The translations under genes were made by a program, and so were the position numbers. Positions 49,212-61,069 of a stretch of 64,000 nt of DNA are shown here, one piece after another; positions within the stretch are counted from its first letter, which is position 1, and each line of letters begins with the position of its first letter. A model generated the notes under the pieces. That model was not told where the DNA came from. It ran no database searches and was given only the letters and a program-made list of their open reading frames with translations. Source of the stretch: a virus (taxonomy: Duplodnaviria > Heunggongvirae > Uroviricota > Caudoviricetes); IMG/VR virus record IMGVR_UViG_3300031227_011131. One strand, given 5' to 3'.

Positions 49212-49779
49212 GAGACAAATGATGTCTGAAACATTTGAAAAAGATGACACGTTTTCGGTTGTTGAGGGCGGTTCTACAGCTATGGTTGTAGATGGCCCTC
49301 ACAGTGTTTCTGAGCATCGCAAACGTCTCATTTCAAAATATCATGATGGTCATGGCGGCTTGATGGAGCGTCTATCCGCTAGTGGTGGGGAGACGTTTGA
49401 AGGATTGCTGATAGCTCTTGTAAATGAGATAGTTGGCGAGACGGATCATTTGCTTGGTAATGAGCTTATTGCTACTGAGGAAGGTTCTTTACGTGATTCT
49501 TCGGTAATTTCTTTCAAGAGAGCAGAAGTTCTTGAGAAAGCTTTGAAGGCAATTCAAGCCAAGCAGCAATTTGAGCGTGAGAATGGTCTTGATCTTGACT
49601 CGCCTGCAATGCGTGTAGTTTTCAGATATTTCATGTCTAAGGTGAAGTTGACTTTTGAGATGTTAGGTTATGAGGACGAGGCATCGGATGTATTTTTTAG
49701 AACGCTTGGTGTGAATATGGAAATTTGGAAGAAAGAGTTGGAAGAAGAGCTTAGCATTGACAGTATGAGCGAGGAGTAA
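49186..49779 (+). CDS. hypothetical protein (positionally a candidate small terminase subunit)
   Basis: Immediately upstream of the large terminase, overlapping it (TAATG). No recognisable motif. Confidence 0.25.
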   Translation: MVVLIGNGRRQMMSETFEKDDTFSVVEGGSTAMVVDGPHSVSEHRKRLISKYHDGHGGLMERLSASGGETFEGLLIALVNEIVGETDHLLGNELIATEEGSLRDSSVISFKRAEVLEKALKAIQAKQQFERENGLDLDSPAMRVVFRYFMSKVKLTFEMLGYEDEASDVFFRTLGVNMEIWKKELEEELSIDSMSEE

Positions 49780-59700: not shown

Positions 59701-61069
59701 ATATCATGGTTGGGTCTACAATCTTGAAGTTGATGGAGACCATACTTATTGTACTGCTCAAGTCCGTCATCATAATTGCTACATATTTCATGAGTGGGAT
59801 GAGAAGTCTAAGAAATGGGATAGGATAGTTATACTTCCTCCTGAAGAGGTTGCAGTATTTCAGTATCCATTTTCTGATATTGCTCGTGTAGAGTATAAGC
59901 CTGAGCGTTTAATGCAGTTACTTGAGTCTTCGGAGGATATGCAAACATCTGAAATGGATGATTTGTCTCGTGAGATTGTGTTGAACACTCCAGATGAAAT
60001 CAAGAAGATGGTTAGAAAGAACGGGGCTATCATAATGGACACTGATCCAACAAGTGGGTCTTTTGTTCATCACATGGCTCGGATGCGGTCCCCATACATG
60101 GATTTGGGCGTATCTGTTCTTGAGCGAGTTTTGATACCGATGCTCATGAAAGAGCATTACAGGTATACGCAGTTATCGTTAGCAAGTCGTAATATGACAC
60201 CGAAGAACAAGATACAGGCTCCGATGTTGACGGGGGATCAGCTTGAGGATTTACGGACTCAGATAGACCTTTCGTATTTAGACCCTGAGTATTCTATTGT
60301 TACGAATTACGAATGGGATTGGGAGCAAATTGGTGCTGACGCAAGATTGCTTGATTTGTCGCGTGAGTATGAGGTAATTGAGAGTCAGGTTTTTGCAGGC
60401 TTAGGAGTAACTCGCGAGCTTTTGACTGGCGAAGGTTCGTATAGTGGCAATCGTATAACAGTTGAAATTCTCAACACAATGTTTCTCATTGTTCGTGAGG
60501 TATTACAAGAGTATGTTGAGCACAAGTTGTTCAAGCCTGTTGCCGAGGCACATGGCTGGTATGAAGAGGGCAAGAATGGCGTAAAGAAGTATTGGTATCC
60601 TAGACTTGGGTTCAACCGGCTTACGATTCGTGACAATCAGGAAGTATTTGACAGTCTTTTTCAGTTGTATCAGAAGGGCAGTTTACCTGTTGATATCATC
60701 TATGAATTGTTCAATCTTGATCCTGATTCCATTCACGAGAAGATTTACGAAGACTTGTTTACCGTAAAGGACCCCACTTTCAATCGTGCAGTAGAGAACA
60801 TCAATGATGATACTGGCCGCGCTCTTGTAGAGCGTAGTGATGTTGTTGACAGGGTTGGTAAATATCTTGGATTGAAAGTAAAGCCACCTGAAGGTGAAGA
60901 AGATGGCGGATTTGGTGATTTTGGTGGCGGATTTGGCGATGAAGAGGGCGGTGATGGTGGTTTAGAAGCTGAAGCTGAAGAATTGGCATCGACCATTTCA
61001 GAGGAATTACCAGCAGACTCTTCTGATGAGGAAATTGAAGAAGTAGTTGATTCGGTTTTAGAGGAGTAA
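56720..61069 (+). CDS. putative portal protein containing two inteins
   Basis: Sits downstream of terL. The extein, once both inteins are removed, is about 650 aa with a highly acidic C-terminus (EGEEDGGFGDFGGGFGDEEGGDGG ...), typical of portals. Confidence 0.5.
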   Translation: MDMAKQNDKTVAASAEGVVRVPVTEDYVKQRIASVQAVKAGMVTPGVTVGAVDSNRAVQARFLEKNATATAAYFGSNGGRGRTGGMMMDALPSFTSPYGTNSLPAYRTSYASGAQSQGGARDIPPYFVMMNEQNGGILYWPVTLREKYDWYRYFARCIYLSDNDLGQILMADGTIKSVDDVQIGDEVITGFGTIRKVKNKFERRCIEDKAVTIKAWCLQNHLKTTHHHPYWIIRRDVVKDGNGYRDNIDFNPEWINADRVNVGDYVLMAPVASDPDNTMTSGEARFLGYYAAEGSIVWGKRCVGTDVDGKGYKWHQEKIKVPVGVAFTINASEKDTLGKGILRTAKEVFGIDGCIVHERGNSVEIVVNGREVGEFCFYHVGTGSATKKLSSELLMSSKEARREFLVGYMEGDGCQYDEKTTNKGKIVIGTSSPMLASQVQVMAIGAGIMCRIAKYERSKTCKTGYKSDTDQWHITIPSWSADSFIASSDKWDAIDGIKQKRGAFFINGYAAFKVKEVTYSEEDDVVYNIEVDADGDEKSYICNGMVTHNTDAYCGRALELLTDLPMSKLTLNMPKMEKQSKKKKQEIHEFFTYMCDELNLFEKLHQILWEFNVIGNCFKPDALVHVPGGMMPIDKVRVRDKVLNANGGYDKVSRVMRRWVDEYLVEIKIDRLTGIDWQATKEHPVLALRDGVEQFVDAKNICKGDYVGIAFNDNVEDMIEYEIVNDVISLMSGMFDQLLVDRSEDSLTLSGKMTRLLSISTSEDFLYVLGYWLGDGWLWSTKNNGPWGFLAWDVVFDKNSITIDKIRDATRSVFGSQLKENEGGYCNDNLLHLTVKDPIFCEWWNHHFGKDSQSKKIPAWVELLPKDKLIWLLRGMIDSDGCINKEKKKGIVSASITTTNEKLMHQVFQIGIKCGIPFSFKKNDGRMVEIANHRQSMGRDSFTVYISDAEKTSSLIRGCAKELPISIGKPTVNQNYKEIDGRFYYRIGGVSEVPYHGWVYNLEVDGDHTYCTAQVRHHNCYIFHEWDEKSKKWDRIVILPPEEVAVFQYPFSDIARVEYKPERLMQLLESSEDMQTSEMDDLSREIVLNTPDEIKKMVRKNGAIIMDTDPTSGSFVHHMARMRSPYMDLGVSVLERVLIPMLMKEHYRYTQLSLASRNMTPKNKIQAPMLTGDQLEDLRTQIDLSYLDPEYSIVTNYEWDWEQIGADARLLDLSREYEVIESQVFAGLGVTRELLTGEGSYSGNRITVEILNTMFLIVREVLQEYVEHKLFKPVAEAHGWYEEGKNGVKKYWYPRLGFNRLTIRDNQEVFDSLFQLYQKGSLPVDIIYELFNLDPDSIHEKIYEDLFTVKDPTFNRAVENINDDTGRALVERSDVVDRVGKYLGLKVKPPEGEEDGGFGDFGGGFGDEEGGDGGLEAEAEELASTISEELPADSSDEEIEEVVDSVLEE
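57188..58366 (+). other. intein 1 (393 aa) with a LAGLIDADG domain
   Basis: Starts CIYLSDND after ...WYRYFAR, block B TTHHHPYWI, motifs FLGYYAAEGS and LVGYMEGDGC, ends NGMVTHN with +1 Thr. Confidence 0.65.
58568..59776 (+). other. intein 2 (403 aa) with a LAGLIDADG domain
   Basis: Starts CFKPDALVHV after ...NVIGN, block B TKEHPVLAL, motifs VLGYWLGDGW and LLRGMIDSDGC, ends TAQVRHHN with +1 Cys. Confidence 0.65.

What the first reader, a model, noticed from the sequence alone, without database searches (positions are those of the whole stretch)
49779..61069. Three LAGLIDADG-type inteins in the packaging machinery: one in the terminase P-loop, two in the portal
The terL intein sits inside the Walker A motif (GRRSGK|C ... 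HN|ST, giving GRRSGKST after splicing). Two more inteins (393 and 403 aa) interrupt the portal-like gene at ...YFAR|C ... HN|T and ...VIGN|C ... HN|C. All three have block A/B/F/G features and double LAGLIDADG motifs. Insertion in catalytic motifs of packaging genes is the expected intein niche. Three in about 11 kb, plus two free-standing LAGLIDADG endonuclease genes elsewhere, is a high homing-element load. It also means the head-assembly module depends on protein splicing.
Basis: partly seen in the sequence, partly recalled or inferred. Interest (0 to 1): 0.6.

Follow-up and report, generated by a model that had tools for sequence, protein, structure and literature searches.

The report
Three inteins in phage packaging genes
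The DNA-packaging ATPase and the portal protein of this uncultured jumbo phage are interrupted by three self-splicing protein elements (inteins) that carry homing endonucleases; this is real, but it is a familiar kind of selfish element at familiar kinds of sites.

Summary
terL (49779-52688) carries a 366-aa intein (50121-51218) between the Lys and Ser of Walker A (GRRSGK|S). The portal gene (56720-61069) carries inteins of 393 aa (57188-58366) and 403 aa (58568-59776).

All three have Cys1, a block B His, a terminal His-Asn, a +1 Ser, Thr or Cys, and two LAGLIDADG motifs with acidic residues. All three match the Pfam intein and LAGLIDADG models.

More than 90 TerL and more than 90 portal homologues, 55-66% identical and from uncultured jumbo phages, lack the inserts. 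They close seamlessly across each junction. Other relatives carry inteins at the same three sites, including mini-inteins, a second lineage at portal site 1, and portals with both sites filled. The spliced portal models as a portal. Intein 1 models as a PI-SceI/VMA-type intein.

The likely mechanism is class 1 protein splicing plus endonuclease-driven homing during co-infection. Splicing and cleavage are inferred, not shown. The terL endonuclease shows signs of decay.

Inteins in the TerL P-loop and in portals are published. This is a new member of a known kind, with a high but not unprecedented load. The two free-standing LAGLIDADG genes also exist.

The parts
49779..52688 (+). terL precursor ORF (969 aa): large terminase subunit interrupted by one intein
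   Evidence: ORF. The spliced product hits PHROG terL at 1e-26 and Pfam TerL_ATPase at 25.7 bits, above the gathering score. Homologues of about 600 aa are 55-66% identical.
49779..50120 (+). terL N-extein (aa 1-114), ending in GRRSGK of Walker A
50121..51218 (+). terL intein, 366 aa, class 1. Cys1; block B SANH (50334-50351); LAGLIDADG motifs LLGYLQGDGG (50484-50513) and FLSRLFACDGC (50775-50807); block F IDLTVEG; block G GGDIISHN; +1 Ser.
   Evidence: Pfam LAGLIDADG_3 at 2.7e-19 and Intein_splicing at 1.9e-11, above the gathering score. NCBIfam hit to the intein part of a DnaB model at 1.5e-38. PDB DnaB intein hits. Twelve relatives carry homologous inteins, 45-56% identical, at the same site. 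GC is 0.372 and GC3 0.284, against 0.41-0.48 GC3 in the exteins.
51219..52688 (+). terL C-extein, starting with the Walker A Ser. It holds Walker B (IILDEM) and the nuclease domain.
   Evidence: The motifs were read directly from the translation.
56720..61069 (+). portal precursor ORF (1449 aa) interrupted by two inteins
   Evidence: ORF. The spliced product hits PHROG portal at 7.3e-25. Homologues of about 650 aa are 55-65% identical. The AF2 model has pLDDT 74, and its top PDB matches are all phage portals.
57188..58366 (+). portal intein 1, 393 aa, class 1. Cys1; block B TTHHH (57389-57409); LAGLIDADG motifs FLGYYAAEGS (57575-57604) and FLVGYMEGDGC (57929-57961); block F VYNIEVDA; block G CNGMVTHN; +1 Thr.
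   Evidence: Pfam LAGLIDADG_3 at 6.8e-9. The AF2 model has pLDDT 88; the best PDB matches are the TliVMA intein (2e-19), PI-SceI and PI-PfuI. Relatives are 59-73% identical at the same site. C1, H72, E137, D256, H392 and N393 are invariant across 12 inteins.
58367..58567 (+). portal middle extein (67 aa) between the two inteins
58568..59776 (+). portal intein 2, 403 aa, class 1. Cys1; block B TKEH (58754-58774); LAGLIDADG motifs VLGYWLGDGW (59021-59050) and LLRGMIDSDGC (59333-59365); block F VYNLEVDG; block G TAQVRHHN; +1 Cys.
   Evidence: Pfam LAGLIDADG_3 at 9.7e-8, Hom_end at 1.7e-6 and Intein_splicing at 9.5e-7. TIGR01443 intein_Cterm at 17.1 bits, above its cutoff. PDB Pho RadA intein at 1e-4. 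The closest relatives (36-45% identical) sit at the same site of the same portal family.
14053..14823 (+). free-standing LAGLIDADG endonuclease gene 1 (256 aa), next to tRNA-Leu(taa)
   Evidence: Pfam LAGLIDADG_3 at 27.8 bits, above the gathering score. Context.
31997..33157 (+). free-standing LAGLIDADG endonuclease gene 2 (386 aa)
   Evidence: Pfam LAGLIDADG_3 at 28.9 bits, above the gathering score.

Best explanation
Three independently acquired class 1 inteins, each with a nested LAGLIDADG homing endonuclease, sit in the two core packaging genes of an uncultured jumbo phage. After translation each intein should excise itself in four steps. Cys1 makes a thioester at the N-terminal junction. 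The +1 Ser (terL), Thr (portal site 1) or Cys (portal site 2) attacks that thioester. The terminal Asn cyclises, assisted by the penultimate His. The exteins are then joined by a peptide bond. This recreates the Walker A loop GRRSGKST in TerL and the conserved motifs YRYFAR-TDAYCGRA and NVIGN-CYIFHEW in the portal. At the DNA level, the endonucleases cut intein-less alleles of related phages during co-infection, and recombinational repair copies the intein into them (homing). This would explain the patchy distribution in the clade. What the sequence shows: the boundaries, the catalytic residues, the folds and the presence/absence polymorphism. What is inferred: that splicing and cleavage actually occur, and that TerL and the portal need splicing to work.
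For: Intein, Hint and LAGLIDADG family hits for each insert come. Intein-less homologues close seamlessly across all three sites, and intein-bearing relatives share C1, His-Asn and the +1 nucleophile. Presence is patchy among 120 TerL homologues (12 relatives at the Walker A site) and 120 portal homologues (13 at site 1, 3 at site 2). On contigs holding both genes, the two are occupied independently (contig lengths). For P0128 and P0178, the site 1 inteins are 71-73% identical to the window's while the exteins are about 60-61% identical, which fits horizontal movement. Two unrelated intein lineages occupy portal site 1. Mini-inteins and truncated forms at all three sites fit the invade-fix-decay cycle. 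The three inteins are not paralogues of each other. The intein 1 model matches endonuclease-containing inteins. The spliced portal model matches portals. Spliced TerL gains the TerL_ATPase hit. In the literature, the Lys|Thr P-loop site is called the 'classic' intein insertion, and mycobacteriophage TerL inteins splice and cleave intein-less alleles (PMC5050341). Portal inteins are also known.
Against: There is no experimental evidence for this locus. The terL intein lacks about 68 aa that follow the LAGLIDADG core in its 420-443-aa relatives, so its endonuclease may no longer cut. Portal intein 2 is about 100 aa shorter than its closest relatives of about 500 aa. An otherwise identical metagenome contig (L001) has a 25-bp frameshifting deletion in the first LAGLIDADG motif of the terL intein. 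That is either an assembly error or evidence that defective copies circulate. The Intein_splicing scores of the two portal inteins are below Pfam's gathering score, although fold and alignment evidence compensates.
Confidence: 0.93

Rival explanations
1. The inteins still splice, but one or more endonucleases are dead. On this view they are fixed, decaying passengers rather than actively homing elements.
For: The terL intein has a deletion of about 68 aa next to the endonuclease core, relative to 420-443-aa relatives. Portal intein 2 is about 100 aa shorter than its closest relatives. Relatives show all stages of decay down to mini-inteins of 133-180 aa. The L001 variant has a 25-bp deletion inside LAGLIDADG motif 1. 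terL inteins diverge about as much as their exteins (45-56% against 52-62%), which is compatible with long vertical descent.
Against: All six LAGLIDADG motifs keep their terminal acidic residue. The endonuclease domains still score above the Pfam gathering score. Portal intein 1 is full length and is closer to some relatives' inteins than the exteins are to each other.
Confidence: 0.4
2. The inserts are lineage-specific native domains of TerL and the portal, or Hint-like autoproteolytic domains, and are not excised by splicing.
For: None found. It is considered only because two Intein_splicing scores fall below the gathering score.
Against: Most close homologues lack the inserts entirely and close exactly at the junctions. 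The +1 nucleophiles, the terminal His-Asn, the block B His and Cys1 are all present. A 366-aa insert between the Lys and Ser of Walker A is incompatible with ATP binding (established knowledge of P-loop NTPases). The intein 1 model matches PI-SceI/VMA inteins.
Confidence: 0.01
3. The locus is a broken or chimeric assembly, or a defective phage, and the interrupted genes are not expressed as functional proteins.
For: A near-identical contig carries a frameshift in terL.
Against: In the window, both precursor ORFs are uninterrupted over 2.9 and 4.35 kb. All three inserts are exact multiples of three bases. The same architecture recurs in many independent assemblies.
Confidence: 0.03
4. The inteins have been co-opted as conditional switches, for example a redox-sensitive Cys1/Cys+1 pair in portal intein 2, so that packaging starts only when splicing is permitted.
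For: Only circumstantial. Three splicing events gate the two proteins that start packaging. Portal intein 2 has Cys at both position 1 and position +1. The literature proposes regulatory retention of P-loop inteins (PMC4760082; PMC5050341).
Against: Most relatives do without these inteins. Occupancy of the three sites is uncorrelated across contigs. Decay forms are common. All of this is the pattern expected of selfish elements.
Confidence: 0.06

Closest known systems
Mycobacteriophage TerL1-a/b P-loop inteins (Kelley et al. 2016, PMC5050341)
   Same: The intein sits between the invariant Walker A Lys and the following Ser/Thr of a phage large terminase. It has a nested LAGLIDADG endonuclease and is patchily distributed among related phages. 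Members of that group were shown to splice and to cleave intein-less alleles.
   Different: The TerL family is different: a jumbo-phage clade for which the source database's precomputed Pfam column lists PF27249 for nearly all homologues, rather than Terminase_1 or Terminase_6. The intein sequence is closest to DnaB-type inteins. No experiment has been done here.
Phage and prophage portal-protein inteins (Kelley 2016; Novikova 2016, PMC4760082, Gp6-like portals; actinobacteriophage survey, bioRxiv 10.1101/2025.01.02.630785)
   Same: These are class 1 inteins with LAGLIDADG endonucleases in portal genes. Portal inteins are polyphyletic, with several groups, as seen here with two lineages at site 1.
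   Different: The portal family is different and has no Pfam hit above threshold. Two sites are occupied in one gene. Both sites lie in the N-terminal third of the protein, ahead of the long stem helices (the domain assignment is inferred from the order of secondary-structure elements).
Intein- and intron-rich crAss-like phages (Yutin et al. 2021, PMC7886860)
   Same: Large uncultured phage genomes carry several inteins per genome (up to 3) and two inteins in one TerL. They also carry free-standing or intron-borne homing endonucleases.
   Different: The phage lineage is different. No group I introns were detected here by Rfam, and no stop-codon recoding is apparent in this window.
PI-SceI / VMA-type and PI-PfuI inteins (PDB 1vde, 7qsu, 1dq3)
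   Same: The Hint splicing domain with an inserted two-motif LAGLIDADG endonuclease domain is shared. These are the best structural matches of the portal intein 1 model (E = 2e-19 to 1e-15, TM 0.55-0.62).
   Different: Sequence identity is only 12-16%. The host proteins and organisms are different.

Membership tests
Intein (class 1, Hint-fold protein-splicing element) | Precise in-frame insertion that is absent from orthologues, which close exactly at the junction | tested here: met
   nine intein-less TerL homologues and 8-12 intein-less portal homologues per site align with 0 residues in the insert. Among the top 120 homologues of each protein, about 100 are intein-less in length.
Intein (class 1, Hint-fold protein-splicing element) | N-terminal Cys/Ser nucleophile; block B Thr/Ser-x-x-His; C-terminal His-Asn; +1 Cys/Ser/Thr | tested here: met
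   Searches give: C1...SANH...SHN|S for terL; C1...THHH...THN|T for portal site 1; C1...TKEH...HHN|C for portal site 2. C1, H72, H392 and N393 are invariant in 12 site 1 inteins. The same ends are seen in all terL-site relatives.
Intein (class 1, Hint-fold protein-splicing element) | Hint fold or a profile match | tested here: met
   The terL intein hits Intein_splicing at 44.5 bits, above the gathering score of 35.8. The intein 1 AF2 model (pLDDT 88) matches solved inteins at E = 2e-19. Intein 2 hits Intein_splicing at E = 9.5e-7 (below the gathering score), TIGR01443 above its cutoff, and the PDB RadA intein at 1e-4. No structure model was made for intein 2 or the terL intein.
Intein (class 1, Hint-fold protein-splicing element) | Actual protein splicing (ligated exteins plus free intein) | not testable with these tools
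   Requires expression with western blot or mass spectrometry.
LAGLIDADG homing endonuclease (two-motif, monomeric) | Two LAGLIDADG helices, each ending in an acidic catalytic residue, within an alpha-beta-beta-alpha-beta-beta-alpha core | tested here: met
   All six motifs were located, each with D or E. Pfam LAGLIDADG_3 is above the gathering score in all three. The intein 1 model also matches I-OnuI and I-DmoI.
LAGLIDADG homing endonuclease (two-motif, monomeric) | Site-specific cleavage of the intein-less allele and homing | not testable with these tools
   The support is indirect only: patchy distribution, and intein identity exceeding extein identity for P0128 and P0178. The deletions in the terL intein and in intein 2 leave activity uncertain.
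Phage terminase large subunit (TerL) | N-terminal P-loop ATPase (Walker A and B) plus a C-terminal RNase H-like nuclease, with a family profile match | tested here: met
   The spliced product hits PHROG terL phrog_2 at 1e-26 and phrog_9 at 5.5e-22, and Pfam TerL_ATPase at 25.7 bits, above the gathering score. tblastn finds annotated terminases. Walker A GRRSGKST and Walker B IILDEM were read.
Phage portal protein | Portal fold (wing, stem, clip, crown) and a family profile match | tested here: met
   PHROG portal phrog_16240 at 7.3e-25. The AF2 model of the spliced protein has 127 PDB matches with E <= 0.001, and the top 50 are all portals (lambda, T4, HK97, T7 and others). tblastn finds the annotated portals of phage G and Tunturi_5. 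Pfam Portal_T4 reaches only 13.4 bits, so the protein is not a member of a curated Pfam portal family.

The most novel reading that the evidence does not exclude
The three inteins might be retained as a post-translational checkpoint rather than being only parasites. TerL cannot bind ATP, and the portal presumably cannot assemble correctly, until all three splice. Conditional splicing, for example a Cys1/Cys+1 disulfide trap in portal intein 2, could therefore time or gate genome packaging in this jumbo phage.
Probability: 0.06. Interest if true: 0.6.

Novelty: new member of a known kind. Interest (0 to 1): 0.27.

Why it matters
For annotation, the two longest 'structural' ORFs in this region are composite, and they only become recognisable as TerL and portal once the inteins are removed. 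Gene callers and family profiles miss them otherwise: TerL_ATPase falls below threshold in the unspliced protein. For biology, this uncultured jumbo-phage clade is a natural intein hot spot. It has three recurrent sites, several lineages per site, full-length and decayed forms, and intein-less alleles. That makes it a usable data set for studying homing dynamics during phage co-infection. It also offers a source of new split-able or conditional inteins and of LAGLIDADG meganucleases with defined targets. It does not change what is known about how inteins work.

Tried and rejected
1. A megablast of the 11.3-kb region against 50,697 phage records found nothing. An exact 39-mer spanning the terL N-junction found nothing in IMG/VR. 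The source genome is therefore not in those collections.

2. I searched the window for further inteins or paralogues, using phmmer with the three inteins and three custom intein HMMs against the six-frame translation. Only the three known copies were found. The three inteins are not recent duplicates of each other. The only cross-match is portal intein 1 against intein 2, at E about 3e-3 by phmmer.

3. The Rfam gathering-threshold scan of the whole window found only nine tRNAs and no group I or II introns. The free-standing LAGLIDADG genes are therefore not evidently intron-borne.

4. I suspected an intein in the 815-aa portal of Tunturiibacter phage Tunturi_5, because its match began just after site 2. 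I rejected this: the extra length is a low-complexity Ala/Gly/Asp-rich insert with no Hint or LAGLIDADG hit.

5. A MAFFT alignment meant to resolve the two other intein-sized inserts in TerL relatives (near spliced residues 50 and 532) misplaced the boundaries. I report those sites only approximately, from BLAST.

6. PDB sequence search with portal intein 1 gave no hit. The fold search was needed instead.

7. The cluster look-up gave no organism names for the NCBI-derived relatives, so the host remains unknown.
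Full report
**Observation**

The region holds two long + strand ORFs: 49779..52688 (969 aa) and 56720..61069 (1449 aa). I located the proposed junctions by script.
- In the first ORF, VLGRRSGK|CLYKQD...GGDIISHN|STMAAC delimits a 366-aa insert (aa 115-480, nt 50121-51218).
- In the second ORF, YRYFAR|CIYLSD...NGMVTHN|TDAYCG delimits a 393-aa insert (nt 57188-58366).
- Also in the second ORF, FNVIGN|CFKPDA...QVRHHN|CYIFHE delimits a 403-aa insert (nt 58568-59776).
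All three inserts are multiples of three bases.

**What the inserts are**

Scanned alone, each insert hits Pfam LAGLIDADG_3 above the gathering score (69.6, 36.3 and 32.6 bits against 22.5). Each also hits the Intein_splicing model.
- The terL insert scores 44.5 bits, above the gathering score.
- The portal inserts score 21.0 and 29.2 bits, below it, with E = 3e-4 and 1e-6.
- The portal inserts also hit Hom_end_hint, Hom_end and Hint_2.

NCBIfam matches fall only on the intein portions of intein-containing models such as DnaB, GyrA, RecA and RNR, and on TIGR01443 intein_Cterm.

All the canonical residues are present:
- Cys1 in all three.
- Block B Ser/Thr-x-x-His: SANH, THHH and TKEH.
- Block F: IDLTVEG, VYNIEVDA and VYNLEVDG.
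- Terminal His-Asn in all three.
- +1 Ser, Thr and Cys respectively.
- Two LAGLIDADG motifs per insert, each ending in Asp or Glu.

An AlphaFold2 model of portal intein 1 was built on an alignment of 12 site 1 inteins. It has mean pLDDT 88. Its best PDB matches are endonuclease-containing inteins: TliVMA at 2e-19, then PI-SceI and PI-PfuI. Free-standing LAGLIDADG enzymes (I-OnuI, I-DmoI) follow. By sequence, the terL intein matches solved DnaB inteins and intein 2 matches the Pho RadA intein.

**What the host genes are**

After removing the inserts in silico, the 603-aa product hits PHROG terminase-large-subunit families (1e-26 and 5.5e-22). It reaches the Pfam TerL_ATPase gathering score at 25.7 bits, whereas the unspliced protein scores only 14.5. 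The junction recreates the Walker A loop GRRSGKST. Walker B (IILDEM) and the nuclease-domain aspartates are intact in the C-extein (read).

The 653-aa spliced portal hits a PHROG portal family at 7.3e-25. Its AF2 model (pLDDT 74, built on 78 sequences) has 127 PDB matches with E <= 0.001. The top 50 are all phage portals, including lambda, T4, HK97, T7 and HFTV1.

In that model, site 1 (R156|T157) lies at the turn between helices 144-157 and 159-173. Site 2 (N223|C224) lies at the start of strand 223-231. Both are in high-confidence regions, ahead of the long helices 342-360 and 449-482. I infer from the usual order of portal elements that both sites are in the wing region and that these long helices are the stem.

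**Comparative test**

This was the decisive test. The spliced exteins retrieved hundreds of homologues from metagenomes. Most are about 600 aa (TerL) or about 650 aa (portal), at 55-66% identity. They lie on contigs up to 338, 344, 477 and 548 kb, so this is an uncultured jumbo-phage clade.

The closest deposited genomes are also jumbo phages: uncultured phage LR745208 (485 kb), Tunturiibacter phage Tunturi_5 (309 kb) and Bacillus phage G (498 kb).

In alignments, the intein-less homologues close across all three junctions with no residue gained or lost:
- GRRxGK|S at the terL site.
- YRY[FW]xR|[TS]DAY at portal site 1.
- NxIGN|[CVST] at portal site 2.

A minority of relatives carry inserts at the same positions, with the same C...HN|nucleophile ends.
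- Twelve TerL relatives have inteins at the Walker A site (292-443 aa, 45-56% identical to the window's intein).
- Thirteen portals of the top 120 have inteins at site 1 and three at site 2.
- Site 1 holds two unrelated lineages. CIYL.../CNGMVTHN is mostly 59-73% identical to the window's intein (two 377-aa members are about 43%). CFTNPNV.../VYGMATHN is about 27% identical.
- For P0128 and P0178, the intein is more similar to the window's (73% and 71%) than the exteins are (61% and 60%). That points to horizontal movement.
- Mini-inteins of 133-180 aa and partly deleted forms occur at all three sites.
- Contig lengths suggest, but do not prove, that certain terL and portal proteins lie on the same contig; in those pairs occupancy is uncorrelated (for example P0018 intein-less with P0178 occupied, and P0058 occupied with P0182 empty).

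An exhaustive HMMER search with portal intein 2 gave further detail. Its nearest relatives (36-45% identical, about 500 aa) sit at the same site of the same portal family. Several portals have both sites filled: P0284, P0245, P0247 and P0255. The double-intein portal is therefore recurrent, not unique.

The three inteins in the window are not copies of one another.

**Mechanism**

The best-supported reading has two parts. The first is standard class 1 protein splicing: an acyl shift at Cys1, trans-esterification to the +1 Ser, Thr or Cys, Asn cyclisation, then an acyl shift to a peptide bond. The second is homing of the coding DNA into intein-less alleles during co-infection, driven by the LAGLIDADG endonucleases.

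The sequence shows the anatomy, the residues, the folds and the population pattern. Actual splicing, actual cleavage, and the dependence of packaging on splicing are inferred. The last inference is strong for TerL, because 366 residues lie between the Walker A Lys and Ser.

There are hints that the terL endonuclease is decaying.
- Its intein lacks about 68 aa that follow the LAGLIDADG core in full-length relatives.
- A JGI contig (L001) is otherwise 100% identical to window 47531-52979. It has a 25-bp deletion between GCAGGG repeats (window 50473-50497). The deletion removes the start of LAGLIDADG motif 1 and frameshifts terL.
- The terL intein also has markedly lower GC3 (0.28) than its exteins (0.41-0.48).

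**Comparison with what is known**

- Terminases are described as a common intein target in phages. Prophage portal (Gp6-like) inteins are tabulated (PMC4760082).
- In mycobacteriophages the Lys|Thr P-loop site is called the 'classic' insertion. TerL inteins there were shown to splice and to cleave intein-less alleles, and portal inteins are listed (PMC5050341).
- An actinobacteriophage survey finds portal inteins in five polyphyletic groups.
- Some crAss-like phages carry up to three inteins per genome and two in one TerL (PMC7886860).
- The present locus is therefore a new member of a known kind, in a different and uncultured jumbo-phage lineage. Its load is high but not unprecedented.

The two free-standing LAGLIDADG genes exist, at 14053..14823 and 31997..33157. 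The window also holds a TnpB-like gene, so the statement about a high load of mobile elements is fair.

**Verdict**

Novelty is low and interest is modest.

Noticed in passing
window 13952-14911: The free-standing LAGLIDADG gene 14053..14823 follows tRNA-Leu(taa) (13952..14038) directly. It is bracketed by a direct repeat of the tRNA's 3' part plus the downstream ribosome-binding site and start codon. The repeat copies are 13982-13998 = 14817-14833 (17/17 identical) and 14011-14075 = 14847-14911 (92% identical). The endonuclease ORF's stop codon is the 'taa' of the repeated anticodon. This looks like an endonuclease cassette that inserted at the tRNA gene and duplicated, or carried a replacement for, its target.
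   Followed up: partly
window 50473-50497; locus L001 (JGI 3300025736, Ga0207997_1006300): A 5.5-kb metagenome contig is identical to window 47531-52979 except for a 25-bp deletion between GCAGGG direct repeats. The deletion lies inside the first LAGLIDADG motif of the terL intein and frameshifts terL into 241-aa and 710-aa ORFs. It is either an assembly artefact or a defective variant in the population.
   Followed up: partly
window 52757-54709: A 650-aa ORF lies between terL and the portal gene. It has a type IB topoisomerase catalytic core (Pfam Topoisom_I, 1e-29, aa 16-210) fused to about 430 aa of unknown function. That part contains an HELAH (HExxH-like) motif. There is no PHROG hit.
   Followed up: no
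window nt 1033, 2681, 28805, 29497, 54748, 55127: A 13-aa peptide of the form [DN]xKR[VI]A[RS]xLVKLAK recurs in six + strand ORFs, mostly at the N-terminus. Two of these are small ORFs between terL and the portal (54706..55086 and 55109..55549). It may be a shared leader or targeting peptide.
   Followed up: no
window 45548-46696 (and 46001-48000): A TnpB / IS605 OrfB-like gene is present (Cas12f1-like TNB domain at 1.2e-17, OrfB_IS605 at 1e-9). GC skew drops from about 0.27 to 0.10 in the 46-48 kb bin, the only dip in the window.
   Followed up: no
window 30968-33157: The second free-standing LAGLIDADG ORF (31997..33157) is in the same reading frame as the upstream ORF 30968..31975, separated by a single stop codon. 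The ORFs on either side (30968.. and 33150..) share a CPxH...CxKCGxxW zinc-ribbon-like motif. ORF 33150..34268 also has a collagen-like GxxGP repeat.
   Followed up: no
window 1-24000: Nine tRNA genes are all on the + strand: Thr x2, Leu x2, Arg, Ile, Gln and Ser(cga) x2. With them are an RtcB ligase (12569..13792, 1.5e-122) and a T4-type RNA ligase (8543..9658), which suggests a tRNA-repair module.
   Followed up: no
whole window: Essentially all long ORFs are on the + strand. GC skew is strongly positive (0.19-0.36) in every 2-kb bin but one across the 64 kb.
   Followed up: no
relatives P0084, P0091, P0118, P0024, P0107; P0262, P0278: TerL relatives carry intein-sized inserts at two further positions, near spliced residues 50 and 532. 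Some very long proteins (P0262 at 3003 aa, P0278 at 2602 aa) combine distant portal-like segments with several intein-like stretches, which suggests poly-intein portals.
   Followed up: no
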